Origin: an uncultured Rhodospirillaceae bacterium
GTDB taxonomy: Bacteria; Pseudomonadota; Alphaproteobacteria; SP197
Direction of reading: 5' to 3'
Length of the DNA stretch: 64,000 nt
Assembly (NCBI GenBank): GCA_964530335.1
Contig: CAZGYG010000006.1
Location: forward strand, 2,451-66,450
Under the pieces are notes generated by a model. It was not told where the DNA came from, did not search any database, and worked only from the letters and a program-made list of their open reading frames with translations. The position numbers and the translations under genes were made by a program. Of the stretch, positions 11,154 to 58,392 are shown one piece after another; within the stretch, counting starts at the first letter, position 1, and each line of letters opens with the position of its first letter.

Positions 11154-11157
11154 GCGC

Positions 11158-13626: not shown

Positions 13627-13826
13627 CGGTGATAGTCCACGATCTCGACGTTGACCGGGCCTACGGCGTCGGATCGACATTGCCACTCATCTCCGCAGTT
13701 ATTCCGCTCGCCATACAGATACGATCCGATGCTGCGAGTCTTAAGGCTCGACTCCCGTAACCCACTCCGGACTCTTCCCATGCCCAACGAACTTCCGTGG
13801 AAGACCCCCGACCCTCTGGTCGGCAA
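13623..13826 (-). pseudogene. Degenerate higB (RelE/ParE-fold toxin, PF05015-like) remnant; only the C-terminal about 30 residues are recognisable
   Basis: C-terminus ...LYGERNNCGDEWQCRSDAVGPVNVEIVDYHR* matches the HigB C-terminal consensus (...LKGDR...W.I.F...DVEIVDYH). The N-terminal two thirds are unrecognisable and overlap the hpaB start. Overlaps the higA start (ATGA). Confidence 0.45.
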
Positions 13827-15276: not shown

Positions 15277-15334
15277 TCCCCCTCGTTCCGGAGCCATAGT
15301 ATCCCGCCGGCGTGCCGATTCGCGAGGGGAAGTC

Positions 15335-17116
15335 ATGGAATCAGGAGGGGAGCGCCGGGTCGAGCGCCGCCTTGCCGCGATCCTGGCCGCCGACGTGGCC
15401 GGCTACAGCCGGCTCATGGGCGTCGACGAGGAGGGCACGCTCGCGCAATTGAAGGGCCATCGGCGCGCCCTCGTCGACCCCAAGATCACGGAACACCGCG
15501 GGCGGATCGTCAAAACCACCGGCGACGGCATGCTGGTGGAGTTCGCCAGCGTGGTCGACGCCGTGCGTTGCGCCGCCGAAATTCAACGCGGCATGGTCGA
15601 GCGCAACGTCGACGTGCCGCCCGATCGGCGCATCGAGTTCCGCGTCGGCATCAACGTCGGCGACATCATCATCGACGGCGACGACATCTTCGGCGACGGC
15701 GTCAACATCGCGGCGCGCCTGGAAACCCTCGCCGCGCCCGGCGAAGTCTGGGTCGGCCGCACGGTTCGGGAGCAGGTGCGCGACAAGCTCGCGTTCGATT
15801 TCGAGGACATGGGCGAGCGCGAGGTCAAGAACATCGCCCGGCCGATCAAGGCCTATCGCATCGTGGCCAAGGAGCCCGTCACCGGCCCGGCCGCGGGTGT
15901 GGCGGACGCACCGTCGCTGCCGGTCAAATCCTCGATCGCCGTCCTGCCCTTCACCAACATGTCGGGCGATCCCGAGCAGGAATACTTCGCCGACGGCATG
16001 GTCGAGGACATCATCACCGCCCTGTCCCGGTTCAACCAGTTGTTCGTGATCGCCCGCAACTCGAGCTTTACCTACAAGGGCCGGGCGGTCGACGTGCGCC
16101 AGGTGGCCAAGGAGCTGGGCGTGCGCTTCGTGCTGGAAGGCAGCGTGCGCAAGGCGGGCAACCGCGTGCGCATCACCGGGCAGTTGATCGATGCCGCGAC
16201 CGGCGCCCATCTCTGGGCGGACCGGTTCGACGGTGGCCTGGAGGACGTCTTCGACCTCCAGGACAAGATCACCGCAAGCGTCGTCGGGGCGATCGAACCG
16301 ACCCTGCGCAAGGTGGAGATCGAACGCGCACGGCGCCGGCCCATCGAGAACCTCGATGCCTACGATCTCTATCTTCGCGCCTTGCCGCACGTCTACGCGT
16401 TTCGCCCAGACGACAATCGCCAGGGCTTCGAGCTGCTCCTGAAGGCGATCGACCTCGATCCCACCTATGCGCCGGCGCTGGCCTATGCCGCCTGGTGCCT
16501 CGAACAGCGCATCGTGCGGGGCTGGCCGCCGATCGGAGAGGACGACACAGGCACGGCGATCGCCCTCGCACGACGGGCGGTCGCCGCCGGTAGTGGCGAT
16601 GCGATGGCCTTGGTCGCCGCCGGGTTTGTCCTGGTGATGGTGGCGCGGGACTATGACACCGGCCTCGACGCCGTGCGCCGCGCGCTCGCGCTCAACCCCG
16701 GCTCCGGGTTCGTCACGTTCGTCTCGAGCGGCGCGCTGCTGTTCAGTGGCAATGCGGACGAGGCGTTGGTCCATATCGAACGGGCCATGGCCCTCAGCCC
16801 CTTGGATCCCGGCTTTTTCATGTACCTGGCCATCGCCGGTCTTGCCCACCTCGCGAACGGCCGCCCCGAGCAGGCCTTGCAACTGGGCAAGAAGTCGGCG
16901 GCCCTTTACCCCGACTGGGACACCGCCTACTGGCTCCTGGTCCCCGCGCATGTCCAACTCGGCAATCTGGGGGAGGCGCAGGCCGCGCTTGCCAGGCTCG
17001 TGGCCCTGACACCCGGAATGACGGTGTCCGGTACCCGCCGGCGTTTTCCGATCAGGAACCAGGAATTCTTGAACATGGTGCTCGACGGTCTCCGCGCGGC
17101 TGGCCTGCCGGAATGA
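15335..17116 (+). CDS. Class III adenylate/guanylate cyclase with a C-terminal TolB-like/TPR regulatory region
   Basis: N-terminal CHD cyclase domain (LAAILAADVAGYSRLMG...IVKTTGDGMLVEF...GINVGDII...GDGVNIAARLE) followed by about 400 aa of TPR-like helical repeats. Confidence 0.85.
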   Translation: MESGGERRVERRLAAILAADVAGYSRLMGVDEEGTLAQLKGHRRALVDPKITEHRGRIVKTTGDGMLVEFASVVDAVRCAAEIQRGMVERNVDVPPDRRIEFRVGINVGDIIIDGDDIFGDGVNIAARLETLAAPGEVWVGRTVREQVRDKLAFDFEDMGEREVKNIARPIKAYRIVAKEPVTGPAAGVADAPSLPVKSSIAVLPFTNMSGDPEQEYFADGMVEDIITALSRFNQLFVIARNSSFTYKGRAVDVRQVAKELGVRFVLEGSVRKAGNRVRITGQLIDAATGAHLWADRFDGGLEDVFDLQDKITASVVGAIEPTLRKVEIERARRRPIENLDAYDLYLRALPHVYAFRPDDNRQGFELLLKAIDLDPTYAPALAYAAWCLEQRIVRGWPPIGEDDTGTAIALARRAVAAGSGDAMALVAAGFVLVMVARDYDTGLDAVRRALALNPGSGFVTFVSSGALLFSGNADEALVHIERAMALSPLDPGFFMYLAIAGLAHLANGRPEQALQLGKKSAALYPDWDTAYWLLVPAHVQLGNLGEAQAALARLVALTPGMTVSGTRRRFPIRNQEFLNMVLDGLRAAGLPE

Positions 17117-17151
17117 TGGGTCCAATGTAGGGTTCTCGATGACGACGACGG

Positions 17152-17265
17152 GTCGCCATCTTCGAGAACGTCAACGCGGCCTCGACGCTGCGCGAGGAGC
17201 TCTACAAGGTCTACGACCGGTCGGAGGGCATCGCCGTGGTCAAGCGCCTGGCAGGCATGGCGTGA
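17152..17265 (+). repeat. Near-identical duplicate of the last about 115 bp of the HpaB-family gene (a pseudo-3' end)
   Basis: gtcgccatcttcgagaacgtcaacgcg...ggcatcgccgtggtcaagcgcctgg...atggc.tga matches 15157-15276 at about 97% identity, apart from a 6-bp in-frame deletion. It is in frame: VAIFENVNAASTLREELYKVYDRSEGIAVVKRLAGMA*. Confidence 0.9.
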
Positions 17266-17272
17266 ACACCCG

Positions 17273-20019: not shown

Positions 20020-20045
20020 GTTGCGGTAAACCTTCTCCCTGCGGG

Positions 20046-20073
20046 CGCGACGGCGGATGCTCCCGCCGTCGCG
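20046..20073 (+). terminator. GC-rich hairpin after the M20 peptidase gene (putative intrinsic terminator without a clear U-tract)
   Basis: cgcgacggcgg-atgctc-ccgccgtcgcg, a perfect 11-bp stem with a 6-nt loop, 27 nt downstream of the stop codon. Confidence 0.35.
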
Positions 20074-20137
20074 GGTGGCGAGCGGAGCGAGCCGGATGAG
20101 GGACCTTACGCACCGGTCACGAACACAGGGCGCAACC

Positions 20138-21178
20138 ATGCCGCGGGCGTTTCGATTTCCCGGACTTCTCGCCATCGTTACGGTGGGTTTGTTCCTGAGT
20201 TTCGCCGCCGCCGCGGGACCGCTCGATGACGGGGTCGCGGCGTACGAGCAGGGCGACTATGCGACGGCGGTGGAGCTTTGGCGCCCGCTGGCCGAGCAAG
20301 GCGACTCCTGGGCCCAGTTCAACCTCGGCTACATGTACGACAACGGCCTTGGCGTGACGCAGGACGCCGCCGAGGCGGCGCGCTGGTACCGGATGGCGGC
20401 CGACCAGGGGCACGCCGGTGCTCAAACCAGCCTCGGCTACATGTACTACGACGGCCGGGGCGTGGCACAGGACGATGCCGAAGCGGCGCGGCTCTACCGC
20501 CTGGCGGCCGAGCAGGGCGTCGCCTTGGCCCAGAACAACCTCGGTTACATGTACCAGAACGGCTGGGGCGTACCTCAGGACGACACCGAGGCGGTGAACT
20601 GGTACCGCCAGGCGGCCGAGAAGGGTGACGCCGACGCCCAGAACAACCTTGGCATCATGTACGATGCCGGCCGGGGCGTGCCACAGGACGACGCCGAGGC
20701 AGTGAACTGGTACCGCCTGGCGGCCGATCAGGGGCACGCCGGCGCCCAAGGCAATCTCGGCGCCATGTACGCCAACGGCCGGGGCGTGGCGCAGGACGAA
20801 GCCGAAGCGGTGCGGCTTTACCGCCTGGCGGCCGACCAGGGGCACTCCGGCGCCCAGTACAACCTCGGCCTCGCGTACGACAGCGGCCGGGGCGTGGCGC
20901 AGGACTTCGTCGAGGCCGCGCACTGGTACCGCATGGCTGCCGACCGGGGCGACGGCTATGCCCAGGTCAACCTCGGAGTCATGTACCTGAACGGCGAAGG
21001 CGTAGAGCAGGATCTCGTTCAGGCCCATCTCTGGTTCGACCTGGCGGCGGCGGGGTTTGCGCCGGGCGAGGACCAGGATTTCGCGCTGGAGAACCGCGAC
21101 GGGGTCGCGGCCGAGATGAACCCGGATCAGGTGGCGGAGGCGCAGCGGCTGGCGGCCGAGTGGCAACCGCTACCGTGA
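20138..21178 (+). CDS. Sel1-repeat (SLR/TPR-like) protein, secreted; 7 Sel1 repeats
   Basis: N-terminal signal peptide (MPRAFRFPGLLAIVTVGLFLSFAAAAG) followed by 7 x 36-aa Sel1 repeats (...A..WYR.AA.QG.A.AQ.NLG.MY..G.GV.QD...) and a conserved C-terminal tail (...LENRDGVAAEMNPDQVAEAQRLAAEWQPLP). Confidence 0.85.
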   Translation: MPRAFRFPGLLAIVTVGLFLSFAAAAGPLDDGVAAYEQGDYATAVELWRPLAEQGDSWAQFNLGYMYDNGLGVTQDAAEAARWYRMAADQGHAGAQTSLGYMYYDGRGVAQDDAEAARLYRLAAEQGVALAQNNLGYMYQNGWGVPQDDTEAVNWYRQAAEKGDADAQNNLGIMYDAGRGVPQDDAEAVNWYRLAADQGHAGAQGNLGAMYANGRGVAQDEAEAVRLYRLAADQGHSGAQYNLGLAYDSGRGVAQDFVEAAHWYRMAADRGDGYAQVNLGVMYLNGEGVEQDLVQAHLWFDLAAAGFAPGEDQDFALENRDGVAAEMNPDQVAEAQRLAAEWQPLP

Positions 21179-21277
21179 GGGGGGCGGTCGGAGTGCCGTC
21201 GTGGCGCACGAAGATGCGGGCCCGGCTTGGTCGCCTGATGCTGAGAATGAAGGGTGCTCACTAAGGAGGAGGTAACC

Positions 21278-22747
21278 ATGTCGTGGATGCTGCGATTCCC
21301 TAGGCCGGTCGTCGTCGCGGCGGCCCTCCTCCTCGGATTTCCCGCGACCGCGGGACCGCTCGAGGACGGGGTCGCGGCGTATGAGCAGGGCGACTATGCG
21401 ACGGCGGTGGAGCTTTGGCGCCCGCTGGCCGAGCAAGGCGACTCCTGGGCCCAGTTCAACCTCGGCTACATGTACGAGTACGGCCTGGGCGTGACGCAGG
21501 ACTATGCCGAGGCGGCGCGGCTCTACCGCCTGGCGGCCGACCAGGGGAACGACGCGGCTCAAGACAACCTCGGCTACCTGTACGAGAGCGGCCTGGGCGT
21601 GACGCAGGGCCATGCCGAGGCGGCGCGGCTTTATCGCCTGGCGGCCGAGCAAGGGAACGCCAACGCCCAAGACAACCTCGGCTACCTGTACGAGAACGGC
21701 CTGGGAGTGCCACAGGACTATGCCGAGGCGGTGAATTGGTACCGCCAGGCGGCCGAGCAGGGCGACGCCGACGCTCAAGACAGTCTCGGCTACATGTACC
21801 AATACGGCCTCGGCGTGGCGGAGGACGACAACGAAGCGGTGAACTGGTACCGCCTGGCGGCCGAGCAGGGGCTCGCCAATGCCCAGTTCGACCTCGGCTA
21901 CATGTACGAGAGCGGTCTGGGCGTGGCGCAGGACCTTGCCGAGGCGGCGCGGCTTTATCGCCTGGCGGCCGAGCAAGGGGACGCCGACGCCCAGAACAAC
22001 CTCGGAGTCATGTACAGCACCGGCCGGGGCGTGCCGCTGGACGACGTCGAGGCGGTACGGCTCTACCGCCTGGCGGCCGAGCAGGGGGATGCGGGAGCCC
22101 AGAACAATCTTGGCTACATGTACGACAGGGGCGAGGGCGTGCCGGAGGACGACGCCGAGGCGGTGCGGCTCTATAGCCTGGCGGCCGACCAGGGGTACGC
22201 CGAAGCCCAGAATAACCTCGGCCTCATGTACGACTACGGCCGGGGCGTGCCGCTGGACGACGCCGAGGCGGTGAACTGGTACCGCCAGGCGGCCGAGCAG
22301 GGGTTCGCCGAAGCCCAAAACAACCTCGGCTACATGTACGCCCACGGCGAGGGCGTGGCGGAGGACGCCACCGAGGCGGTGCGCTGGTACCGCCTGGCGG
22401 CCGAGCAGGGCGACGCCTGGGCCCAAAACAATCTCGGCTGGATGTACGAAACCGGTGATGGCGTGGCGGAAGACGACGCCGAGGCGGTGCGTTGGTACCG
22501 CCAAGCGGCCGAGCAGGGACACGGCAAGGCCCAGAGCAACCTCGGCTACTTGTACCAGAACGGCGAGGGCACAGAGGTGGACCTCGTTCAGGCCCACCTC
22601 TGGTACGACCTCGCGGCGTCGGGGTTTGCGCCGGGCGAGGACCTGGATTTCGCGCTGGAGAACCGCGACGCGGTCGCGGCCGAGATGACCCCGGATCAGT
22701 TGGCGGAAGCGCAGCGGCTGGCGGCCGAGTGGCAGCCCGTGGAGTGA
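21278..22747 (+). CDS. Sel1-repeat protein, secreted; 11 Sel1 repeats (tandem paralogue)
   Basis: RBS aaggaggagg, signal peptide (MSWMLRFPRPVVVAAALLLGFPATAG), 11 Sel1 repeats, and the same C-terminal tail as the upstream paralogue. Confidence 0.85.
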   Translation: MSWMLRFPRPVVVAAALLLGFPATAGPLEDGVAAYEQGDYATAVELWRPLAEQGDSWAQFNLGYMYEYGLGVTQDYAEAARLYRLAADQGNDAAQDNLGYLYESGLGVTQGHAEAARLYRLAAEQGNANAQDNLGYLYENGLGVPQDYAEAVNWYRQAAEQGDADAQDSLGYMYQYGLGVAEDDNEAVNWYRLAAEQGLANAQFDLGYMYESGLGVAQDLAEAARLYRLAAEQGDADAQNNLGVMYSTGRGVPLDDVEAVRLYRLAAEQGDAGAQNNLGYMYDRGEGVPEDDAEAVRLYSLAADQGYAEAQNNLGLMYDYGRGVPLDDAEAVNWYRQAAEQGFAEAQNNLGYMYAHGEGVAEDATEAVRWYRLAAEQGDAWAQNNLGWMYETGDGVAEDDAEAVRWYRQAAEQGHGKAQSNLGYLYQNGEGTEVDLVQAHLWYDLAASGFAPGEDLDFALENRDAVAAEMTPDQLAEAQRLAAEWQPVE

Positions 22748-22797
22748 ATGAGCGCCGGCCCATCGTGCGCGGCCACCGCCTCGGCGTACGATGATCC

Positions 22798-22869
22798 GAG
22801 GTGCGGCTGAACGCGCCGGTGCCGGGCGCGGCGCTTACCGCGACCGCCGCGCTTACGTGACCGCACCTC
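22798..22869 (+). other. Long imperfect hairpin between Sel1 paralogues 2 and 3
   Basis: gaggtgcgg ... ccgcacctc arms enclose about 55 nt containing internal cgcttac direct repeats. It lies immediately upstream of the signal-peptide-less third paralogue. Confidence 0.4.
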
Positions 22870-22897
22870 AACCGCGATTGTCCAGCAAGGATCGGAC

Positions 22898-24088
22898 TTG
22901 ATCCCTTTCGACCCCTTCAAGGAAGGCCTTGCGGCGTTCAAGCGTGGCGACTATGCGGCGGCGGCGGAGCTGTGGCGTCCGCTGGCCGAGCAGGGTATGG
23001 CCGAAGCCCGGTACTACCTCGCCGTGCTGTACGACAACGGCAAGGGCGTAGCACAAGACGACGCCGAGGCGGTGCGGCTCTACCGCCTGGCGGCCGATCA
23101 GGGGGATGCCGCCGCCCAAACCAACCTCGGTACGATGTACCTCGACGGCCGGGGCGTGCCACGGGACGACGCCGAGGCAGCGCGGCTCTACCGCCTGGCG
23201 GCCGACCAGGGGTTGGCCAAAGCCCAATACAACCTAGGGCTCATGTACTGGAACGGCAGGGGCATGCCAAAGGACGACGCCGAGGCGGCGCGCTGGAGCC
23301 GCCTGGCGTCCGACCGGGGGATGGCCGAAGCGCAGTACAACCTAGGGCTCATGTACCGCAACGGCTGGGGCGTGCCGCGCGACGACGCCGAGGCGGCGCG
23401 CTTGTTCCGCCTGGCGGCCGACCAGGGGGACGCCGAAGCCCAGTACAACCTCGGGCTCATGTACCGGAACGGCAAGGGCGTGCCACGGGACGACGCCGAG
23501 GCGGCGCGCTGGTTCCGCCTGGCGGCCGACCAGGGGATGGCCCAAGCCCAGTTCAAACTCGGCTTCATGTACGACAACGGCAGGGGCGTGCCACGGGACG
23601 ACGCCGAGGCGGTGCGGCTCTACCGCCTGGCGGCCGAGCAGGGGTACGCCGGTGCCCAGTACAACCTCGGGCTCATGTATGACAACGGCGAGGGCGTGCC
23701 AATGGACGACGCCGAGGCGGTGCGGCTCTACCGCCTTGCGGCCGAACAGGGGATGGCCCAAGCCCAGTTCAACCTCGGGCTCATGTACCGCAACGGCGAG
23801 GGCGTGCCAATGGACGACGCCGAGGCGGCGCGCTGGTTCCGCCTTGCGGCCAATCAGGGGATGGCCGAAGCCCAGTTCAACCTCGCCGTCAGGTACCAGA
23901 ACGGCGAAGGCGTAGAGCAGGATCTCGTCCAGGCCCATCTCTGGTTCGACCTGGCGGCGTCGGAGTTCCCGCCGGGCGAGGACCAGGATCTCGCGCTGGA
24001 GAACCGCAACGCGGTCGCGGCCGAGATGACCCCGGATCAGGTGGCGGAGGCGCAGCGGCTGACGGCCGAGTGGCAGCCCGTGCCGTGA
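22898..24088 (+). CDS. Sel1-repeat protein; 9 repeats, no signal peptide, TTG start (tandem paralogue, possibly 5'-truncated)
   Basis: Begins LIPFDPFKEGLAAFKRGDYAAAAELWRPLAEQG, exactly where the mature domain of paralogues 1 and 2 begins. The in-frame stop at 22808 leaves no room for a signal peptide. Carries the same C-terminal tail. Confidence 0.7.
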   Translation: MIPFDPFKEGLAAFKRGDYAAAAELWRPLAEQGMAEARYYLAVLYDNGKGVAQDDAEAVRLYRLAADQGDAAAQTNLGTMYLDGRGVPRDDAEAARLYRLAADQGLAKAQYNLGLMYWNGRGMPKDDAEAARWSRLASDRGMAEAQYNLGLMYRNGWGVPRDDAEAARLFRLAADQGDAEAQYNLGLMYRNGKGVPRDDAEAARWFRLAADQGMAQAQFKLGFMYDNGRGVPRDDAEAVRLYRLAAEQGYAGAQYNLGLMYDNGEGVPMDDAEAVRLYRLAAEQGMAQAQFNLGLMYRNGEGVPMDDAEAARWFRLAANQGMAEAQFNLAVRYQNGEGVEQDLVQAHLWFDLAASEFPPGEDQDLALENRNAVAAEMTPDQVAEAQRLTAEWQPVP

Positions 24089-39066: not shown

Positions 39067-39357
39067 ATGGCCACGTACATCGCCCTGATGAACTGGACCG
39101 ACCAAGGCATCAAGACCGTCAAGGAATCGCCCAAGCGTTCCGAACTGGCGCGGGCCGTCGCCAAGAAGCTCGGCTGCGAGCTCACGAAGTTCTACATGAC
39201 GATCGGAAGCTACGACATGGTGGCCTTCATCAAGGCGCCCGACGCCGAGACGGCAGCGAAGTTCCTCCTGAGCATCGGCGGCGCGGGCAACGTGCGCACA
39301 ACGACGCTCAGGGCGTTCTCGGAGGACAGCTACAAGCGCATCGTCGGCAGCCTGTAG
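39067..39357 (+). CDS. GYD-domain protein
   Basis: 96 aa (MATYIALMNWTDQGIKTVKESPKR...GSYDMVAFIKAPD) matching the GYD family. Confidence 0.7.
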   Translation: MATYIALMNWTDQGIKTVKESPKRSELARAVAKKLGCELTKFYMTIGSYDMVAFIKAPDAETAAKFLLSIGGAGNVRTTTLRAFSEDSYKRIVGSL

Positions 39358-39367: not shown

Positions 39368-39838
39368 ATGGACGGCGACCGGCAGCTCCTGGTCGTCGCC
39401 CACGCGCCGTCGGCCAACACCCGCCGGCTGATCGAGGCGGTCGAGGACGGCATCCGGTCGGCCGAGGCGGCGAGCGTGCGCTGGCGGGTCATGCGCCCGT
39501 TCGACGCCGGGCCCGACGACGTGCGCGGCGCCCGCGCGATCATCCTGGGGACGACCGAGAACCTCGGCTACATGAGCGGGGCGCTCAAGGACTTCTTCGA
39601 CCGCGTCTATTACCCGTGCCTCGAGCACACCCAGGGACTGCCCTACGCGCTCGTCATCCGCGCCGGGCACGACGGCACCGGCACGCGGCGCGGCGTCGAG
39701 ACCATCGTGACGGGCTTGCGCTGGCGCGCGGTGCAGGAGCCCGTGGTCCTGAGGGGCCCGTGGCAGGAGGCGTTCCTCGAGCCCTGCCGGGAGCTCGGCG
39801 CCGCGATGGCCGCCGGGCTCGACGCCGGGGTGTTCTGA
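39368..39838 (+). CDS. Flavodoxin-like fold protein (NAD(P)H-dependent FMN reductase / flavodoxin family)
   Basis: 156 aa; LLVVAHAPSANTRRL...AIILGTTENLGYMSGALKDFFDR fits a flavodoxin-like fold. Confidence 0.55.
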   Translation: MDGDRQLLVVAHAPSANTRRLIEAVEDGIRSAEAASVRWRVMRPFDAGPDDVRGARAIILGTTENLGYMSGALKDFFDRVYYPCLEHTQGLPYALVIRAGHDGTGTRRGVETIVTGLRWRAVQEPVVLRGPWQEAFLEPCRELGAAMAAGLDAGVF

Positions 39839-39911: not shown

Positions 39912-41216
39912 ATGAACCAGCGTTACGACGCCATCGTCATCGGGGCCGGCGTGATCGGCGCCTGTGTCGCCTTCGAGCTGGCCAAGAAGGGCTGGAAGAC
40001 GCTCAGCGTCGACAAGAACGCGAGCGCGGGCTACGGCTCGACCTCGGCCAGTTGCGCGATCATCCGCACCTACTATTCGGTCTACGAGACCTGCGCGATT
40101 TCGTACGAGGGCTGGTTCTACTGGAAGGATTGGCCCGGCTACCTGGGCGTCGCCGACCCGCGCGGCATGGCGGTCTATCACGACACCGGCTGCCTGGTGG
40201 TCAAGACCGGGCACAACAAGGGGCTCGGCCACATCGCGGAAATCATGGACCGCATCGGCTGCCCCTACCAACACCTGACGCCCGACGAGATGAAGGCGCG
40301 CCTGCCGATCATCGACCTGCACGAGTTCGGCCCGGCCAAGCGCCCCGAGGACCCGGGGTTCGGCGAGCCGAGCGGCGGGCTGCTGGCGGGCGGCGTGTTC
40401 TTTCCGCGCGGCGGCTACGTGTCGGACCCGGCGCTCAGCGCCCAGAACGCGGAATGCGCGGCCAAGTCCAAGGGCGCCGAGTTCCGCTACCGCGCCGAGG
40501 TCGTCGCGGTGCGCCGGGCGAAGGGCCGCGTCGCCGGCGTGACGCTGGCAGACGGAGCCGAGATCGACGCCCCCGTGGTCGTCAACGTCGCGGGACCGCA
40601 CTCGGCCAAGATCAACCAGATGGCCGGCGTGTTCGACGCCATGAAGATGAAGACCCGGGCGCTGCGCCACGAGGTCGCCCACGTGCCCTCGCCCCAGGGC
40701 TTCGATTTCGAGGCGCGCGGCATGGTCTACTCCGACAGCGACATCGCGACCTACTGCCGGCCCGAGCTCGGCAACCACATCCTGATCGGGTCCGAGGACC
40801 CGGCGTGCGACAAGCGCGAATGGGTCGACCCGGACGATTTCAACCGCGAGTTCACCGAGCAGTGGCGCGTGCAGGCGCTGCGCCTGGCCCAACGCTTCCC
40901 CGAGCTGCCCATCCCCTCGCGCATGAAGGGCGTGGTCGACCTCTACGACGTGACCGAGGACTGGATCCCGATCTACGACCGCACCGACCTGGACGGCTTC
41001 TACGTCGCCATCGGCACCAGCGGCAACCAGTTCAAGAACGCGCCGGTCGCCGGCAAGATGATGACGCGGCTGATCGAGGCGTGCGAGGCCGGCCACGATC
41101 ACGACCGCGACCCGGTCGTGTTCCACCTCGACCACATCGGCCACGACGTCACGGTCGGGTTCTTCTCGCGCAACCGCGAGGTCAATCCCAACTCGAGCTT
41201 CTCGGTGCTCGGCTGA
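39912..41216 (+). CDS. FAD-dependent oxidoreductase (DAO family; sarcosine-oxidase-beta / amino-acid-oxidase-like)
   Basis: N-terminal GxGxxG (YDAIVIGAGVIGACVAFELAKKG) and DAO-domain length (434 aa). Confidence 0.75.
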   Translation: MNQRYDAIVIGAGVIGACVAFELAKKGWKTLSVDKNASAGYGSTSASCAIIRTYYSVYETCAISYEGWFYWKDWPGYLGVADPRGMAVYHDTGCLVVKTGHNKGLGHIAEIMDRIGCPYQHLTPDEMKARLPIIDLHEFGPAKRPEDPGFGEPSGGLLAGGVFFPRGGYVSDPALSAQNAECAAKSKGAEFRYRAEVVAVRRAKGRVAGVTLADGAEIDAPVVVNVAGPHSAKINQMAGVFDAMKMKTRALRHEVAHVPSPQGFDFEARGMVYSDSDIATYCRPELGNHILIGSEDPACDKREWVDPDDFNREFTEQWRVQALRLAQRFPELPIPSRMKGVVDLYDVTEDWIPIYDRTDLDGFYVAIGTSGNQFKNAPVAGKMMTRLIEACEAGHDHDRDPVVFHLDHIGHDVTVGFFSRNREVNPNSSFSVLG

Positions 41217-41469
41217 ACCTCCTAATGCGCATTCCGATCGCGTGGAAGCGTGCTCCGTCCACCCCCTTCGACGCCGCCTGCGGCGTCGCTCAGGACAGGC
41301 TTCAAGACGCGGCCCTGCGGGCGTGGCGGCGGTTGCTCCCGCCCCCACACCTCAGGGCGAACGGGCAAGAGAAACAGACGTTCGTGGTGAGGAGGCGCGA
41401 AGCGCCGTCTCGAACCACGGACTGCGTCACGCACCCCGGTGATCCCATGGGATCGAAACCTGCTGTACA

Positions 41470-41530
41470 ACGGGGGACCCACGCATGAAGAGCCACGCCC
41501 GCGTCGTCGTGATCGGCGGCGGTGGTCGGA
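41470..41530 (+). repeat. Pseudo-start: diverged copy of the RBS and first about 15 codons of the dimethylglycine-dehydrogenase-like gene
   Basis: cgggggacccacgcATGAAGAGCCACGCCCGCGTCGTCGTGATCGGCGGCGGTG versus agggggcccacgcATGAAGTCCCACGCCCGCGTGGTCGTGATCGGCGGCGGTG at 42033-42085, about 90% identical. Confidence 0.85.
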
Positions 41531-41582
41531 AAGCTACGGTACCGGGGGTGCGGCTTGCGGGGAAGCGGAGGAGCGACGCCAC

Positions 41583-41822
41583 ATGAGCGAAGACGACAGC
41601 AGCGAGCCTACCGCCGCTGAGCAAGGAGCTTTCTCCAGGGTCCACGATGTCGTCGACGAGATGGTGGGTCGGGAGGGCCACCCCGCGGTTGAGGTGGGTC
41701 GAGGGATCCTCACCGCCGCGGTCGTCTGTCTAAGGAAGGCCCTCCCCGACGAAGAGGTCGCGAAACTGCTCTATGGCTTGGCGGACGGGTGGGCCACGTC
41801 GCGGTTCGAGCGAGAGCGATGA
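41583..41822 (+). CDS. Hypothetical small acidic protein (79 aa; possibly DUF2267-like)
   Basis: RBS ggaggag lies 9 nt upstream. MSEDDSSEPTAAEQGAFSRVHDVVDEMVGREGHPAVEVGRGILTAAVVCLRKALPDEEVAKLLYGLADGW... shows weak resemblance to DUF2267 helices. Confidence 0.35.
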   Translation: MSEDDSSEPTAAEQGAFSRVHDVVDEMVGREGHPAVEVGRGILTAAVVCLRKALPDEEVAKLLYGLADGWATSRFERER

Positions 41823-41835
41823 CCCTCCGTTGCGG

Positions 41836-41871
41836 CGATGGCGGCCGGGCTCGACGCCGCAGTGTTCTGAG
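41836..41871 (+). repeat. Pseudo-3' end: copy of the last about 36 bp (including the stop) of the flavodoxin-like gene at 39803-39838
   Basis: gcgatggcggccgggctcgacgccgcagtgttctga versus gcgatggccgccgggctcgacgccggggtgttctga, 33/36 identical. Confidence 0.75.
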
Positions 41872-41911
41872 TATCCGAGCGAGAATAGCGGGACCATTAA
41901 CGTGTTCAGCC

Positions 41912-41998
41912 GTCATGACCGGGCGAAGTCCCGGTCATCCACGCCGTTGGACCAGAGAAGACGTGGATGCCCGGCACGAGGCCGGGCATGACGGTTCC
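41912..41998 (+). repeat. REP-like tandem hairpins (family 2)
   Basis: atgaccgggcgaagtcccggtcat followed by gtggatgcccggcacgaggccgggcatgacggttcc. The second hairpin recurs at 46147-46182 as gtggatgcccggctcaaggccgggcatgacgattcc. Confidence 0.65.
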
Positions 41999-42045
41999 GG
42001 GTTTGCATCCGTCGGTGTCGCACCAATAGTAAAGGGGGCCCACGC

Positions 42046-44463
42046 ATGAAGTCCCACGCCCGCGTGGTCGTGATCGGCGGCGGTGTCGTTGGCTGCTCGG
42101 TGCTCTACCACCTGACCAAGCTCGGCTGGAGCGACGTCATGCTGGTCGAGCGCTCCGAGCTCACGTCCGGCTCGACCTGGCACGCGGCGGGCGGGTTTCA
42201 CACGCTGAACGCCGACACCAACATGGCGGCGCTGCAGGGCTACACCATCCGGCTCTATCGCGAGCTCGAGAAGATCTCCGGCCAGTCGTGCGGCCTGCAC
42301 CACGTCGGCGGCGTGACGCTGGCGACCACGCGCGACCGCTTCGACTACCTCAAGGCCGAGCGCGCCAAGCACCGCTACATGGGGCTCGAAACCGAGATCA
42401 TCGGGCCGGACGAGGTCAAGAAGTTCTCGCCGATCACCAACATCGAGGGCGTGCTCGGCGCCTTGTACGACCCGCTCGACGGGCATTTGGACCCGGCGGG
42501 CACGACCCAGGCCTACGCCAAGGCCGCGCGCATGGGCGGCGCCGAGATCGTGCTGCGCAACCCGGTGGTCGAGACCAACCCGCGCGCCGACGGCGGCTGG
42601 GACGTGGTGACGCGGGACGGCACGATCCAGGCCGAGCACGTGGTCAACGCCGGCGGCCTGTGGGCGCGCGAGGTCGGCCGTTTGGCCGGCGTCTACTTCC
42701 CCGTCCATCCCATGGAGCACCAGTACCTGGTGACCGAGGCGACGCCCGAGGTCTACGAGCGCGACCACGAGCTGCCCCACGTTCTGGACCCGGAGGGGGA
42801 GAGCTACCTGCGCCAGGAAGGCCAGGGCCTTGTGATCGGCTTCTACGAGCAGGGTTGCGAGTTCTGGTCGGTCGACGGCACGCCCGCCGGCTTCGGCCAC
42901 GAGCTGCTGGAGAACAAGCCGGACCGCATCGGCGACGCGGTCGAGTTCGCGTTCCGCCGCTACCCGGTGCTCCAGCGCGCCGGCATCAAGCGCACGATCA
43001 ACGGCCCGTTCACGTTCTCGCCGGACGGCAACCCGCTGGTCGGGCCGGTGCCGGGCTTGCGCAACTACTGGTCGGCGTGCGCGGTCATGGCCGGGTTCAG
43101 CCAGGGCGGCGGCGTCGGGCTCAGCCTCGCCGAGTGGATGATCGAGGGCGAGCCGTCGCGCGACGTGTTCGCCGCCGACGTCGCCCGCTTCGGGCCGTGG
43201 ATCACGCCGGGCTACACCCGCGCCAAGGTGCGCGAGACCTACCAGCGCCGGTTCTCGGTGTCGTACCCGAACGAGGAGCTGCCGGCGGCGCGCCCGTTCC
43301 GCACCACGCCGGCCTACGCCCTGTGGCAGGGCCGGCGCGCGGTGTTCGGCGCCGCCTACGGCATGGAGGCGGTCAACTACTTCGCGCCCGAGGGCGAGGC
43401 GTTGTTCGAGACGCCGAGCTTCCGCCGCTCCAACGCCTTCGCCGCGACCGGAGCGGAATGCCGTGCCGTGCGCGAGGGCGTCGGCCTCAACGAGATCCAC
43501 AACTTCGGCAAGTACCTGGTGACCGGGAAGGACGCGCGCGCCTGGCTCGACCGCATCATGGCCGGGCGCCTGCCGGCGATTGGACGGCTGAGCCTGACGC
43601 CCATGCTGAGCCCGAAGGGCCGGATCATCGGCGACTTCACCGTCTCCGGGATCGCCGAGACGACGTTCCAGCTCACCGCCTCGTTCGGCGCCCAGGCGTT
43701 CCACACGCGCTGGTTCGAACGGCACCTGCCCGCGGGCGACGTGGCGGTCGAGAACGTGTCGACCCGGCGCCTCGGCTTCCAGATCGCCGGGCCGAAGGCG
43801 CGCGATCTGCTGGCCCGGGTCGCGCGCGCCGACGTGTCCAACGCGGCGTTCCCGTTCATGGCCGTGCGCGAGCTCGAGATCGGCGTGTGCCGGGCGCTGG
43901 TCCAGCGCGTGTCCTACACCGGCGACCTCGGTTACGAGATCTACGTGCCGGCCGAGGATCAGGTCGCGCTTTACGGGATCCTGACCGCCGCGGGCGCCGA
44001 CCTGGGGCTCAAAGCGTTCGGCATGCGCGCGATGATGAGCCTGAGGCTCGAGAAGTCGTTCGGTTCGTGGCTGCGCGAATACAAGCCCGAATACATGCCG
44101 GCCGAGACCGGGCTCGACCGCTTCGTCGCCTACAACAAGCCGGTCGATTTCATCGGCAAGGCCGCGGCGATGAAGGAAAAGTCGGCCGGGCCCAGCCGCC
44201 GGCTGGCGACCTTCGTGGTCGATGCCAAGGACGCCGACGTGGCGGGCTACGAGCCGATCTGGCACCAGGGCAAGGTGGTCGGCTTCGTCACCTCGGGCGG
44301 CTACGCGCACTACGTCGGAAAATCGGTCGCGCTCGGCTTCCTGCCCGTGGAGCTCGTCGCCGAGGGTCAGAACGTCGAGATCGAGATCCTGGGCGAGCTG
44401 CGCCCGGCGCGCATGATCACCCGGCCGTTGTTCGACCCCGACGCCAAGCGCCTGCGCGGCTGA
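42046..44463 (+). CDS. Dimethylglycine/sarcosine dehydrogenase-family enzyme (FAD DAO domain plus GcvT-like folate-binding domain)
   Basis: 805 aa with an N-terminal dinucleotide-binding site (VVVIGGGVVGCSVLYHL), a histidine probably covalently linked to FAD (SGSTWHAAGG) and a C-terminal aminomethyltransferase fold. Confidence 0.85.
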   Translation: MKSHARVVVIGGGVVGCSVLYHLTKLGWSDVMLVERSELTSGSTWHAAGGFHTLNADTNMAALQGYTIRLYRELEKISGQSCGLHHVGGVTLATTRDRFDYLKAERAKHRYMGLETEIIGPDEVKKFSPITNIEGVLGALYDPLDGHLDPAGTTQAYAKAARMGGAEIVLRNPVVETNPRADGGWDVVTRDGTIQAEHVVNAGGLWAREVGRLAGVYFPVHPMEHQYLVTEATPEVYERDHELPHVLDPEGESYLRQEGQGLVIGFYEQGCEFWSVDGTPAGFGHELLENKPDRIGDAVEFAFRRYPVLQRAGIKRTINGPFTFSPDGNPLVGPVPGLRNYWSACAVMAGFSQGGGVGLSLAEWMIEGEPSRDVFAADVARFGPWITPGYTRAKVRETYQRRFSVSYPNEELPAARPFRTTPAYALWQGRRAVFGAAYGMEAVNYFAPEGEALFETPSFRRSNAFAATGAECRAVREGVGLNEIHNFGKYLVTGKDARAWLDRIMAGRLPAIGRLSLTPMLSPKGRIIGDFTVSGIAETTFQLTASFGAQAFHTRWFERHLPAGDVAVENVSTRRLGFQIAGPKARDLLARVARADVSNAAFPFMAVRELEIGVCRALVQRVSYTGDLGYEIYVPAEDQVALYGILTAAGADLGLKAFGMRAMMSLRLEKSFGSWLREYKPEYMPAETGLDRFVAYNKPVDFIGKAAAMKEKSAGPSRRLATFVVDAKDADVAGYEPIWHQGKVVGFVTSGGYAHYVGKSVALGFLPVELVAEGQNVEIEILGELRPARMITRPLFDPDAKRLRG

Positions 44464-45651: not shown

Positions 45652-45789
45652 GGGCAGGGCTTTAGCAGGGGGCCGGGCGACCTGCTAGGGCGCAATCTGC
45701 ACAACGTGATCCATGAAGGCGCCATGGCCGGGCGTGTCCCACGGCTGTCCGGTTCGCCGCCGAAAGTTCTGGCGCGCGATCCTTGGAAA

Positions 45790-45875
45790 ACCTCTCCTGG
45801 GGGAGAGGTCGCCCGCCTTCGCCAAGGCTTCGGCGGGCTTGCCCTCCGAAGCCCAAAGGGCGAAGGAGGGTGAGG
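45790..45875 (+). repeat. Palindromic element related to family 1, plus a cctctcctgggggagagg hairpin
   Basis: cgcccgccttcgccaaggcttcggcgggcttgccctccgaagcccaaagggcgaagga shares arms with 24215-24395. A further hairpin, ccaccttctccccccgggagaaggtttc, lies at about 45975-46005. Confidence 0.5.
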
Positions 45876-46146
45876 GGCGGCGGCGACGCTGCGCGCCGAG
45901 GCAGGTTTGGGCACCCTCTGTCCGTCGCCACCGTAACCAACATGGGCTGCCCCTCATCCGGCTCGCTGCGCTCGCCACCTTCTCCCCCCGGGAGAAGGTT
46001 TCATGCGGCGACCGTGTCCTCTCCAGCGGTAGCCCCTGGAGTGTCGCAGCGGTCCGGGCGTTTCCGCCAATTGGATGGGCGCTCAACCGGACAGCCGTGG
46101 GCTTGACCCGGCCATCCACATCTTTGAATCACTTACGTTTCAAGGC

Positions 46147-46182
46147 GTGGATGCCCGGCTCAAGGCCGGGCATGACGATTCC
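46147..46182 (+). repeat. REP-like hairpin, family 2 copy
   Basis: gtggatgcccggctcaaggccgggcatgacgattcc; see 41963-41998. Confidence 0.65.
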
Positions 46183-46236
46183 CTTTGAATGGTATTCGCC
46201 CTACCTTGGGCCGGTTCAATCGCGGGGAGACCGAAC

Positions 46237-57766: not shown

Positions 57767-58009
57767 TTGACTACGGCAATTGGATACGGCACGATATGCC
57801 GTATGAATGATACGCAGAAGGTTACGGCTCACCTCCCGATGGAGTTGCTGCGGCGCGCGCAGGCGGTGACCCATACGGGGATCACGGAAACCTTGCGCCG
57901 CGCGCTTGACATGCTCGTGGAGGGGCAGGCGGCCGACGAACTTCGTGCGTTGCGCGGCAAAGTCCACCTCAAGATCGACCTGCGCGAGTTGCGCAAGGAC
58001 AGGCGTTGA
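57767..58009 (+). CDS. vapB: VapB-type type II antitoxin (start may be the ATG at 57803, giving 68 aa)
   Basis: Small basic/acidic protein MNDTQKVTAHLPMELLRRAQAVTHTGITETLRRALDMLVEG... Its stop overlaps the PIN toxin start (TTGA). Confidence 0.7.
   Translation: MTTAIGYGTICRMNDTQKVTAHLPMELLRRAQAVTHTGITETLRRALDMLVEGQAADELRALRGKVHLKIDLRELRKDRR
57784..57804 (+). promoter_or_regulatory. Palindromic operator-like site overlapping the vapB start codon
   Basis: atacggca-cgata-tgccgtat, perfect 8-bp inverted arms with a 5-nt spacer. The ATG of MNDTQK... lies in the right arm. TTGACT at 57766-57771 is a possible -35. Confidence 0.5.
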
Positions 58010-58392
58010 TCGCCGTCGACACCAGCACGTTGATCGCGTTTCTGGCGGGCGAGCCCGGCGACGACGTGGAGGCGCTTGATCGAGCACTCGCTGACCGTGA
58101 AGCGCGGCTGCCTCCGGTCGTCGTTACCGAAGTCTTGAGTCCCCCGGACGTGACGACTCAGATGGTTGATCTGCTGCGCCGGCTGCCCAAGCTCGCGGTG
58201 ATCGATGGATTCTGGGAACGTTCCGGGCGAACGCGAAGCAAGCTGCTAAGCCATGGGATGAGGGCCGCCATCGCCGACACGTTGATATGTCAGTCCTGCC
58301 TCGACCACGACCTGCCGCTTCTCACCCGCGATGACGACTTCAAATCCTTCGCGCGGCATTGCGGACTGAAACTCGCCGACGGCAGCCCATAA
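58006..58392 (+). CDS. vapC: VapC PIN-domain ribonuclease toxin
   Basis: 128 aa with PIN acidic residues (MIAVDTS...; ...VVTEVL...; ...TRDDDF...). Confidence 0.8.
   Translation: MIAVDTSTLIAFLAGEPGDDVEALDRALADREARLPPVVVTEVLSPPDVTTQMVDLLRRLPKLAVIDGFWERSGRTRSKLLSHGMRAAIADTLICQSCLDHDLPLLTRDDDFKSFARHCGLKLADGSP

What the first reader, a model, noticed from the sequence alone, without database searches (positions are those of the whole stretch)
41217..42095. Mosaic spacer upstream of the dimethylglycine-dehydrogenase-like gene: pseudo-start of dmgdh, a small ORF, a pseudo-3' end of the flavodoxin gene, then REP hairpins
At 41472-41525 there is a second copy (about 90% identical) of the dmgdh RBS and first 15 codons, agggggaCCcacgcATGAAGAGCCACGCCCGCGTCGTCGTGATCGGCGGCGGTG. 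It is followed by a 79-aa ORF with its own good RBS, and then by a 36-bp copy (33/36 identical) of the 3' end and stop of the flavodoxin-like gene that sits 2 kb upstream (39803-39838). Two REP-like hairpins follow, and then the real dmgdh start at 42046. Two different gene termini have been copied next to a small cargo ORF, the same signature as the three other loci in this window. A 14-bp perfect palindrome, gatcccatgggatc (41443-41456), lies just before the pseudo-start.
Basis: seen in the sequence. Interest (0 to 1): 0.6.

Follow-up and report, generated by a model that had tools for sequence, protein, structure and literature searches.

The report
Insertion scar displacing a gene's start
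About 800 bases of extra DNA sit between two metabolic genes that are 13-25 bases apart in the relatives that share this gene order; part of it is an insert carrying one small mobile-element-type gene and a spare copy of the downstream gene's start, a known kind of recombination scar that recurs at three other places in this window.

Summary
41473-41524 repeats the RBS and first 13 codons of the dmgdh-like gene (42034-42085; 48/52, E 2e-14). 41832-41870 repeats the last 12 codons and stop of the flavodoxin-like gene (39800-39838; 35/39). Between them lies a 79-aa ORF (41583-41822), and a REPIN-like hairpin (41908-41996) follows. Two other metagenome assemblies carry the same structure. Relatives with the same flav-ox-dmgdh-ackA order have only 13-25 nt between ox and dmgdh, against 829 nt here, so the extra DNA is lineage-specific.

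ORF79 is not DUF2267. It belongs to a rare, unannotated family of about 75-80 aa. The predicted fold is a three-helix bundle. Some homologues lie beside integrase, resolvase or conjugation genes.

The repeat copies differ almost only synonymously: 11 synonymous against 2 non-synonymous codon differences over three loci. This suggests each copy evolved inside a working gene, so they are homologous ends from different lineages brought together by recombination.

Three other loci show the same anatomy. Their cargo is relB-yafQ, a higB remnant with higA, and a cyclase gene.

Best reading: a homology-guided insertion with duplication ("terminal displacement"), later trimmed and colonised by REP elements. 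This is a known kind of event and of moderate interest.

The parts
39368..39838 (+). flavodoxin-like (FMN_red-type) gene. Its last 39 nt (39800-39838, 'a1') are the functional copy of the duplicated 3' end.
   Evidence: GC3 0.99. Weak FMN_red match. The orthologue in L092-L094 is called FMN_red in the same synteny. Repeat shown.
39912..41216 (+). DAO-family FAD oxidoreductase ('ox'), 434 aa. It is native and sits directly upstream of dmgdh in relatives.
   Evidence: Pfam DAO, E 1e-47. Homologues are 434 aa. ox-dmgdh adjacency in L006, L011, L012, L018, L026, L029, L055 and L092-L095.
41217..41472 (.). Left spacer (sp1) with REP-like structured repeats. A hairpin lies at 41380-41422. A 31-nt stretch (41313-41343) recurs at 20037-20067. 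An unremarkable 14-nt palindrome lies at 41441-41454.
   Evidence: Fold z -4.1 for 41370-41425. Repeat pair. Palindrome count 7 against 11.5 expected.
41473..41524 (+). Displaced copy ('b1') of the dmgdh ribosome-binding site and first 13 codons. It ends at a recombination or deletion junction (41524|41525).
   Evidence: 48/52 identity to 42034-42085, E 1.8e-14. All coding differences are synonymous. 11/12 identity upstream of the ATG, against 4-7/12 to orthologues.
41485..41586 (+). 33-codon reading frame opened by the displaced dmgdh start. Its TGA overlaps the ATG of ORF79 (ATGA), so translational coupling is possible. This is inference.
   Evidence: Read directly from the sequence.
41583..41822 (+). 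ORF79, the cargo gene. It belongs to an unannotated family of about 75-80 aa with a predicted three-helix bundle. GC3 is 0.77, below that of host genes.
   Evidence: 24 full-length homologues by exhaustive HMMER, E down to 8e-14. 44 by profile search. Alignments A1 and A3. AF2 pLDDT 89. No Pfam, NCBIfam, PHROG or PADLOC family. GC3.
41832..41870 (+). Copy ('a2') of the last 12 codons and stop of the flavodoxin-like gene. It begins 9 nt after the ORF79 stop, in the same frame. Its left edge (41831|41832) is a junction in mid-coding sequence.
   Evidence: 35/39 identity to 39800-39838. No flav similarity further upstream.
41908..41996 (.). REPIN-like element: two inverted REP units forming one long hairpin.
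   Evidence: MFE -51.4 kcal/mol, z -3.25. A copy of one unit lies at 46149-46176 / 46142-46182. The only Rfam matches are weak hairpin-type hits on both strands, far below threshold.
42034..42085 (+). Functional copy ('b2') of the dmgdh ribosome-binding site and first 13 codons.
42046..44463 (+). dimethylglycine-dehydrogenase-like gene (DAO + FAO_M + GCV_T + GCV_T_C), 805 aa, intact.
   Evidence: Pfam. GC3 0.96. Orthologues are 805 aa.

Best explanation
The spacer is a scar of horizontal DNA acquisition by homology-guided insertion with duplication, which I call 'terminal displacement'.

The ancestor had flav-ox-dmgdh-ackA with ox and dmgdh almost abutting. DNA from a related bacterium, or from a mobile element that had passed through one, carried three things: ORF79, a short stretch of chromosomal sequence (flav 3' end, spacer, dmgdh start), and therefore its own ribosome-binding site and first codons of dmgdh. 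It recombined with the resident dmgdh 5' region.

Two routes fit. One is a single crossover of a circular molecule. The other is one homologous anchor plus one illegitimate join. Either way the imported start is now fused to the gene and in use, and the resident start is stranded upstream as a dead stub.

Later deletions trimmed the insert to the 307-nt ORF79 segment and shortened the left duplicate to 52 nt. REP/REPIN elements of this genome colonised both halves of the spacer.

What is shown: the extra DNA is lineage-specific, the duplicates exist, the cargo is a real gene, the copies differ synonymously, and the pattern recurs.

What is inferred: the enzymology (RecA-type rather than site-specific), the order of events, the origin of the flav 3' fragment, and the translational coupling of ORF79 to the displaced start.
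For: - Empty site. L092, L093 and L094 (ox 82% identical) share the flav-ox-dmgdh-ackA-SDR order and have 25 nt between ox and dmgdh. L095 (80%) has 13 nt. More distant relatives have about 5-200 nt. The window has 829 nt.
- Duplicates are far beyond chance and are reproduced in two independent assemblies.
- The copies look like diverged working genes. b1 and b2 encode the identical MKSHARVVVIGGG through AGC/TCC (Ser) and GTC/GTG. a1 and a2 show 2 synonymous and 1 non-synonymous codon differences. Adding loci B and C gives 11 synonymous against 2 non-synonymous, plus an in-frame 2-codon indel. Binomial p is 1e-5 to 3e-4. I estimate about 0.005 by hand even if only one copy decayed neutrally.
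- At locus B the displaced start still overlaps the upstream gene's stop (ATGA), the new start stands free, and protein-level similarity runs beyond the DNA repeat.
- The cargo is foreign-like. ORF79 has GC3 0.77, matching relB 0.77, yafQ 0.76 and higA 0.78. Host genes have 0.84-0.99.
- ORF79 homologues sit next to integrase, resolvase, TraG and ParA genes in L087 and L090.
- Four different target genes share no repeat motif that I could see by eye, and the cargos have no shared end motifs, terminal inverted repeats or recombinase gene. This points to a general homology-driven process.
- L002 shows five clustered synonymous differences at 42150-42168. This suggests recombination with diverged alleles at this gene's 5' end in the population.
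- Single-crossover integration that duplicates 109-950 bp of the homologous locus has been demonstrated experimentally (PMC3240628).
- HFIR-like displacement has been proposed for T6SS and Rhs arrays (PMC5361080).
Against: - No donor or intermediate was found. ORF79 has no relative closer than 52% identity. The two metagenome scans returned nothing.
- 52 nt at 92% identity is too short for efficient RecA recombination, so a later trimming deletion must be assumed.
- The flav 3' fragment needs either a donor in which flav abuts dmgdh or an earlier capture event. Neither was observed.
- For locus D alone the synonymous excess is weak: 4 against 1.
- b1 and b2 share 11/12 nt of non-coding sequence upstream of the ATG. 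This would also fit a local duplication.
- A site-specific origin with a lost integrase cannot be excluded.
Confidence: 0.5

Rival explanations
1. Decayed site-specific integrative element (CIME-like remnant). An element with a tyrosine or serine recombinase integrated into the 5' end of dmgdh. Its attP carried a replacement start, so the 52-nt repeats are attL and attR. The integrase and most of the cargo were later deleted, leaving ORF79.
For: - The anatomy (imperfect direct repeats covering a gene end, with function restored by the element's copy) is that of integrative elements. This is established knowledge.
- ORF79 homologues lie in an island with Phage_integrase and Resolvase genes in Labrenzia (L087), and immediately after a Resolvase gene on a conjugative-plasmid-like contig (L090).
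- Short imperfect repeats suit a recombinase better than they suit RecA.
Against: - There is no recombinase gene or remnant in the 829 nt.
- The four loci in 64 kb have four different targets and repeat sequences with no common core that I could see by eye in the aligned repeats. The cargo ends share no motif.
- Cargos at loci A and B end in what look by eye like truncated genes, as expected for arbitrary junctions.
- The model does not explain the flav 3' fragment.
Confidence: 0.2
2. Local tandem duplication. The segment from the flav 3' end to dmgdh codon 13 (a-ox-spacer-b, about 2.2 kb) duplicated in place, creating a b|a junction. ORF79 then landed at that junction. The second ox copy was deleted and REPs moved in.
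For: - One event yields both duplicates in the observed order, a1...b1-a2...b2.
- b1 and b2 share 11/12 nt upstream of the ATG, whereas orthologues share only 4-7/12.
Against: - It needs three further events.
- The ox2 deletion would have to start exactly after the a2 stop codon. No similarity remains between the sequence after a2 and after a1, or between sp2 and sp1, in the window self-comparison or by eye.
- A dead copy should accumulate mostly non-synonymous changes, but the differences are synonymous, including an AGC/TCC serine switch.
- Loci A and B cannot be explained this way. Their cargo is foreign, and the displaced and new starts at B have different contexts.
Confidence: 0.15
3. Chance similarity or a metagenome mis-assembly that joined strain variants.
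For: - The window appears to be metagenome-derived.
- Two of the repeat pairs are both exactly 52 nt long.
Against: - E-values are 1.8e-14 and 6e-7.
- The repeats are imperfect, so they are not k-mer overlaps.
- The same structure was assembled independently from two other metagenomes with no substitutions in the spacer.
- ORF79 is a conserved gene.
Confidence: 0.02

Closest known systems
Insertion with duplication by single crossover of a circular molecule, and homology-facilitated illegitimate recombination (HFIR)
   Same: Foreign DNA enters next to a homologous anchor. Single crossover leaves the insert flanked by direct copies of the homologous segment; 109-950 bp duplications of lacZ were seen experimentally (PMC3240628). 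No dedicated recombinase or element ends are needed, which matches the lack of shared motifs here.
   Different: Classical HFIR yields an insertion plus a deletion, not a duplication. Here the retained duplicate is only 52 nt at 92% identity, so a later trimming step has to be assumed. This is a natural, fixed example in a metabolic operon, not a laboratory event.
C-terminal displacement in Rhs/CDI loci, and effector-immunity displacement in Vibrio T6SS clusters
   Same: A newly acquired module carrying its own copy of a gene end takes over, and the old end is pushed aside and left as an orphan fragment. An HFIR-like mechanism has been proposed (PMC5361080). Locus C in this window (a displaced 3' end after a cyclase gene) is the same geometry.
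   Different: Those systems diversify toxin tips under strong selection and displace 3' ends. Here the targets are ordinary metabolic genes. At three of the four loci (A, B, D) a 5' end with its ribosome-binding site is displaced. The cargo is TA modules or a small orphan gene, not toxin or immunity tips.
Integrative elements that insert into gene ends and restore them; CIMEs (att-flanked remnants without integrase)
   Same: Imperfect direct repeats span a gene terminus. The element supplies the working terminus. A small att-flanked remnant lacks a recombinase. ORF79 relatives occur in integrase- or resolvase-bearing islands and plasmids.
   Different: No integrase is present. The other loci in the window share no common core that I could see by eye. 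At least some cargo junctions appear by eye to cut through genes. Membership is not established.
REP/REPIN/BIME-type intergenic palindromic repeats
   Same: 41908-41996 is a pair of inverted REP units forming a long hairpin. One unit recurs in another intergenic region at 46149-46176.
   Different: These explain part of the spacer growth but not the gene-end copies or ORF79. The copy number seen in one 64-kb window is small. No RAYT gene was looked for.

Membership tests
   hmmscan against Pfam-A at E up to 1 returns only a sub-threshold SnoaL hit (E 0.17) and no DUF2267. NCBIfam, PHROGs and PADLOC also give nothing consistent.
Real protein-coding gene (ORF79) | Homologues of matching length with aligned start and stop; codon-position GC pattern | tested here: met
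   There are 24 and 44 homologues. Most are 73-82 aa and 34-52% identical over the full length. Q14, F17, G41, A45, A46, Y64, A67 and D68 are nearly invariant. GC at codon positions 1/2/3 is 0.73/0.47/0.77. AF2 gives a three-helix bundle with pLDDT 89.
Site-specific integrative element (ICE/IME/CIME) | Direct repeats (attL/attR) flanking the insert at a gene end | tested here: met
   52-nt imperfect direct repeats at 41473-41524 and 42034-42085.
Site-specific integrative element (ICE/IME/CIME) | Integrase or recombinase gene in the element, or a recognisable remnant | tested here: not met
   No such ORF or frame lies between 41217 and 42045. The only real gene is ORF79.
Site-specific integrative element (ICE/IME/CIME) | The same att core and element found at the same target in other genomes, or an excised circle | not testable with these tools
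   No closer ORF79 relative exists in the protein collections. The metagenome scans returned nothing. No read data are available.
Transposon / IS / MITE | Terminal inverted repeats, a short exact target-site duplication, and a transposase | tested here: not met
   No inverted-repeat or shared end motif exceeds shuffled controls (z at most 2.0). The flanking repeat is 52 nt and imperfect. There is no transposase ORF.
Integron gene cassette | attC-type recombination site at the cassette boundary; nearby intI | tested here: inconclusive
   The four cargos share no boundary motif, and there is no Rfam hit in the spacer. An attC-specific model and a whole-genome intI search were not run.
Diversity-generating retroelement (template and variable repeat) | Mismatches confined to template adenines; variable repeat at a gene's 3' end; reverse transcriptase nearby | tested here: not met
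   The mismatches are A/G, AG/TC and C/G. They lie at a 5' end that includes the ribosome-binding site. There is no RT ORF.
Terminal displacement / insertion with duplication by homology-guided recombination | A displaced gene end homologous to the working end, with foreign cargo between them | tested here: met
   Cargo GC3 is 0.77 against 0.84-0.99 for host genes.
Terminal displacement / insertion with duplication by homology-guided recombination | Relatives with the same synteny lack the insert | tested here: met
   L092-L094 have 25 nt and L095 has 13 nt between ox and dmgdh.
Terminal displacement / insertion with duplication by homology-guided recombination | The copies diverged as functional coding sequence (an excess of synonymous differences) | tested here: met
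   11 synonymous against 2 non-synonymous codon differences over loci B, C and D (both the a and b pairs), p 1e-5 to 3e-4. Locus D alone gives 4 against 1, which is weak.
Terminal displacement / insertion with duplication by homology-guided recombination | An identifiable donor arrangement, and microhomology at the illegitimate junction | not testable with these tools
   No donor sequence was found.
REP/REPIN | A stable imperfect palindrome, in inverted pairs, dispersed in intergenic regions | tested here: met
   Hairpin z -3.25. A second copy lies at 46149-46176 in the ackA-SDR spacer. Only one window was sampled.
Type II toxin-antitoxin module (for ORF79) | A two-gene operon with a recognisable toxin or antitoxin family | tested here: not met
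   ORF79 stands alone and matches no TA family. Its neighbours differ between contexts.

The most novel reading that the evidence does not exclude
This lineage might host a dedicated, recombinase-independent way of moving small selfish cassettes (TA pairs, ORF79-type genes). The cassettes would travel welded to a spare copy of a neighbouring gene's start or end. They would insert by swapping that terminus, so the host gene stays functional and the cassette borrows the displaced translation start. Here that would be the 33-codon leader ending in an ATGA overlap with ORF79. Under this reading the four loci in 64 kb are the visible output of a systematic 'terminus-swapping' process rather than unrelated accidents.
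Probability: 0.07. Interest if true: 0.75.

Novelty: new member of a known kind. Interest (0 to 1): 0.35.

Why it matters
This is a clean natural example of how accessory DNA gets wedged into a tight operon without killing the downstream gene: the incoming DNA brings its own start for that gene. Four such scars in 64 kb, with synonymous-only differences between the copies, suggest that additive recombination with diverged relatives leaves short orphan gene ends. Those orphan ends could be used as a genome-wide marker of past acquisitions. They also mislead gene callers: JGI called a 120-aa ORF over the dead start. In addition, the work defines a rare, unannotated family of roughly 75-80-aa three-helix proteins that is partly linked to mobile elements.

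Tried and rejected
- ORF79 as a decayed flav paralogue: the only similarity is the 13-codon tail.
- ORF79 relatives on sequenced plasmids or phages: none by tblastn.
The single-protein scan and an exact 27-mer of the ox 3' end both returned nothing, even though L092 contains that 27-mer. That collection evidently does not hold those samples.
- A conserved partner gene for ORF79: neighbours differ between contexts. The 265-aa neighbour in L084 and L097 is a single lineage (92% identical) and has no family.
- Shared end motifs or terminal inverted repeats among the four cargos: none.
- A promoter or intrinsic terminator in the spacer: none by consensus scan.
- An RNA family in the spacer: only sub-threshold hairpin-type hits.
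- DGR reading: rejected on the mismatch pattern.
- The palindrome as a functional site: rejected as no more frequent than chance.


Full report
**What is there**

The window is 70% G+C. Real genes are easily recognised by GC3 of 0.84-0.99.

Around the finding the genes run in this order:
- GYD-domain gene, 39067-39357
- flavodoxin/FMN_red-like gene, 39368-39838
- DAO-family oxidoreductase 'ox', 39912-41216, 434 aa
- an 829-nt spacer
- dimethylglycine-dehydrogenase-like gene, 42046-44463 (DAO + FAO_M + GCV_T + GCV_T_C)
- acetate kinase on the other strand

- 41473-41524 repeats 42034-42085 at 48/52 without gaps. It covers 12 nt upstream of the ATG and 13 codons. Self-blastn gives E 1.8e-14.
- 41832-41870 repeats the last 12 codons and stop of the flavodoxin-like gene (39800-39838) at 35/39. 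The 36-nt core has E 6e-7.
- Between them is a 79-codon ORF, 41583-41822, with a GGAGGAG ribosome-binding site.
- 41908-41996 folds into one long hairpin made of two inverted REP units (-51.4 kcal/mol, z -3.25). One unit recurs at 46149-46176.
- The left half of the spacer holds another strong hairpin at 41380-41422 (z -4.1).

The 14-nt palindrome is real but sits at 41441-41454. It is no more than chance gives: 7 in the window against 11.5 in shuffles.

Contigs from two other JGI metagenomes carry the same structure at 99.8-99.9% identity, with at most one indel in the spacer. Mis-assembly is therefore excluded.

**The spacer is lineage-specific inserted DNA**

The closest usable relatives are L092, L093 and L094, with ox 82% identical. 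They have the same order, FMN_red-ox-dmgdh-ackA-SDR, and only 25 nt between ox and dmgdh. L095 (80%) has 13 nt.

More distant genomes with ox next to dmgdh (Kiloniella, Sneathiella and several MAGs) have about 5-200 nt.

The ancestral state is therefore a tight ox-dmgdh pair. The window lineage gained about 800 nt.

The closest relative of all (ox 86%) has a 233-aa unannotated ORF after ox. Its DNA could not be fetched.

**The small ORF is a real gene, but not DUF2267**

Pfam, NCBIfam, PHROGs and PADLOC give nothing consistent. The word-indexed search found only the protein itself.

The exhaustive HMMER search found 24 homologues, most of them 74-81 aa. They align over the full length at 34-52% identity, with E down to 8e-14. 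A profile search raised this to 44.

Starts and ends align, and several positions are nearly invariant. AlphaFold with this alignment gives a confident three-helix bundle (pLDDT 89). It has no significant PDB match.

The contexts I could retrieve are mixed.
- In Labrenzia sp. EL_208 the gene lies in an island with a tyrosine integrase and a resolvase, next to dus (L087/L088).
- On a plasmid-like contig it directly follows a resolvase gene, with TraG/TrwB and ParA-type genes nearby (L090).
- In L084 and L097 it sits among unannotated genes. In L089 and L098 it is in ordinary chromosomal settings.

Only the small gene itself is shared between these contexts.

In the window its GC3 is 0.77, well below host genes. 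I conclude it is a genuine gene of foreign, partly mobile-element-associated origin. Its function is unknown.

**The same signature elsewhere in the window**

Self-comparison shows three more imperfect direct-repeat pairs that include a gene end.

- **Locus A** (6991-7086 and 8014-8113). The repeats cover the upstream region and what I read as the first roughly 10 codons of a CoA-ligase-like gene. The cargo is a complete RelB/DinJ antitoxin plus YafQ/RelE toxin pair.
- **Locus B** (13248-13299 and 13823-13874, 52 nt). The repeats cover the 5' end of an HpaB-like monooxygenase gene. The cargo is a HigA antitoxin (TIGR02607, above cut-off) and what looks like a truncated higB. The left copy is clearly the original start. 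Its ATG overlaps the stop of the upstream gene (ATGA). The right copy is a free-standing new start. Protein similarity extends beyond the DNA repeat: MNAAAPWDASDPLASKPVPRQGADPYLRDGA against MPNELPWKTPDPLVGKPVPRAGADPYLRDGA.
- **Locus C** (15154-15282 and 17149-17271). The last 40 codons of the same HpaB-like gene are repeated after a 593-aa cyclase-TPR gene.

The TA cargo genes have GC3 of 0.76-0.78, the same as ORF79. The four cargos share no end motifs or terminal inverted repeats. The four repeat sequences show no common core that I could see by eye.

**The copies look imported, not copied in place**

I compared the two copies codon by codon.
- dmgdh start: AGC/TCC (Ser/Ser) and GTC/GTG. Both copies encode MKSHARVVVIGGG.
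- flav end: 2 synonymous and 1 non-synonymous.
- Locus B: 3 synonymous and 1 non-synonymous.
- Locus C: 4 synonymous and 0 non-synonymous, plus an in-frame 6-nt indel.

The total is 11 synonymous against 2 non-synonymous. If about 25-35% of random changes are synonymous, p is 1e-5 to 3e-4. Allowing that one copy stayed under selection (expected fraction about 0.46), my hand calculation gives about 0.005.

Most of the divergence therefore arose while each copy was part of a working gene. The pairs are homologous ends from different lineages that recombination brought together.

For locus D alone the signal is weak (4 against 1). Two further observations bear on this locus.
- The two dmgdh-start copies share 11/12 nt of non-coding sequence before the ATG. 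Orthologues share 4-7/12. Any donor was therefore a close relative.
- L002 differs from the window by five synonymous changes clustered at 42150-42168 in otherwise identical sequence. This is a small recombination tract at this gene's 5' end.

**How it most likely happened**

The topology is: resident start, then cargo, then imported start fused to the gene. A single crossover between the chromosome and a circular molecule carrying a piece of the gene produces exactly this.

In E. coli conjugation experiments, such events duplicated 109-950 bp of the homologous locus and were commoner than true homology-facilitated illegitimate recombination (PMC3240628). A homologous anchor in the gene body plus an illegitimate join inside the resident 5' end gives the same picture.

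Related 'displacement' of gene ends by incoming modules has been described for Rhs loci and Vibrio T6SS effector-immunity arrays, with an HFIR-like mechanism proposed (PMC5361080).

52 nt at 92% identity is too little for efficient RecA recombination. I therefore infer that the original duplicate was longer. A later deletion would have removed its distal part together with most of the insert. This would also explain why at least some junctions at loci A and B appear by eye to cut through genes. TA genes resist loss, which would explain why they are what remains.

The flav 3' fragment sits 9 nt after the ORF79 stop, with a mid-coding left edge. The simplest account is that it is part of the imported piece: flav end, spacer, dmgdh start, taken from a genome or element where these were adjacent. 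I could not find such a donor.

REP/REPIN elements then colonised the spacer. The ackA-SDR spacer shows the same growth, 537 nt here against 93 nt in L092.

One functional detail is inferred from the sequence only. The displaced start opens a 33-codon frame, 41485-41586, whose TGA overlaps the ORF79 ATG. ORF79 may therefore be translated by coupling to the old dmgdh ribosome-binding site. The consensus scans found no promoter or intrinsic terminator in the spacer. Read-through from ox to dmgdh remains plausible.

**Rivals**

- **Decayed site-specific element (CIME-like).** It fits the attL/attR-like repeats and the integrase and resolvase neighbours of ORF79 relatives. But there is no recombinase remnant, and it would need four unrelated target sites in 64 kb. 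It also leaves the flav fragment unexplained. I give it 0.2.
- **Local tandem duplication** of the flav-end-to-dmgdh-start segment. It neatly gives both duplicates in the right order. But it needs an insertion exactly at the junction and a deletion of the second ox copy starting right after a stop codon. It also contradicts the synonymous pattern. I give it 0.15.
- **Chance or mis-assembly.** Excluded, about 0.02.

**Comparison and verdict**

This works like insertion with duplication, or terminal displacement. Both are known.

Membership of any defined mobile-element family (IS/MITE, integron cassette, ICE/IME, DGR) is not supported. For most of them a defining feature was tested and not met. 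The integron test was inconclusive.

It is a new instance of a known kind of event. Three points are modestly interesting:
- 5' ends with their ribosome-binding sites are displaced in ordinary metabolic genes.
- The scar recurs four times in 64 kb with selfish cargo.
- The cargo here defines an unannotated small-protein family.

Interest 0.35.

Noticed in passing
window 6991-8113: Locus A. A complete RelB/DinJ-YafQ/RelE toxin-antitoxin pair (7282-7539, 7526-7807; GC3 about 0.77) lies between about 96-100-nt imperfect direct repeats. The repeats cover the upstream region and what I read as the first roughly 10 codons of the CoA-ligase-like gene at 8084. By eye, the insert ends appear to carry truncated reading frames on the minus strand.
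   Followed up: partly
window 13205-13874: Locus B. The original start of the HpaB-like gene (ATG 13205, overlapping the upstream stop) is stranded after 32 codons. The insert holds a HigA antitoxin (13321-13626, minus strand) and a remnant that looks like a truncated higB. A new start lies at ATG 13780.
   Followed up: partly
window 15154-17271: Locus C. The last 40 codons of the HpaB-like gene are repeated, with a 2-codon in-frame deletion and only synonymous differences, after a 593-aa adenylate/guanylate-cyclase-TPR gene (15335-17116, GC3 0.87). Loci B and C bracket the same gene, so one imported segment (13300-17148) could account for both.
   Followed up: partly
window 20057-24088: Three consecutive genes (373, 497 and 396 aa) are built from 108-nt (36-aa) Sel1 repeats. 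They form a roughly 4-kb array of more than 25 repeat units at 60-87% identity.
   Followed up: partly
window 42150-42168 compared with L002: Five third-codon-position differences are clustered within 19 nt of dmgdh in an otherwise nearly identical contig from another metagenome. This looks like a short recombination or gene-conversion tract from a diverged allele.
   Followed up: no
window 57767-58392: An 80-aa ORF overlaps by 4 nt with a 128-aa PIN-domain gene (VapBC-like). GC3 is 0.75-0.78, like the other cargo genes. The self-comparison found no flanking repeat.
   Followed up: partly
contig of P0060 (ENA ERZ27301951; no DNA available): In the closest relative (ox 86% identical), a 233-aa ORF without Pfam hits lies between ox and the next gene. 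The ox-dmgdh junction may be a recurrent insertion point.
   Followed up: no
L084 982-1779 and L097 1710-2507: The two closest ORF79 homologues with usable contigs are each followed, 12 nt later, by a 265-aa gene. The two are 92% identical to each other and match no Pfam or PADLOC family. By eye the sequence has a nucleotidyl-cyclase-like motif (RGSFSYGQLYH...GEAMVDAYRLE).
   Followed up: partly
window 45652-46188: The ackA-SDR spacer is 537 nt here against 93 nt in L092. It holds REP copies related to those in the dmgdh spacer and at 20037-20102. This genome's intergenic regions are generally inflated by REP-type repeats.
   Followed up: partly
window 10227-12066: Two adjacent polysaccharide-deacetylase genes are tandem paralogues at about 80-93% DNA identity in blocks.
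   Followed up: no
L001 1309-1671 (window about 41225-41586): The JGI gene call includes a 120-aa 'gene' over the REP-rich spacer and the dead dmgdh start, ending in the ATGA overlap with ORF79. It is an example of a displaced start misleading a gene caller. L001 also has one extra A at window position 41456.
   Followed up: partly
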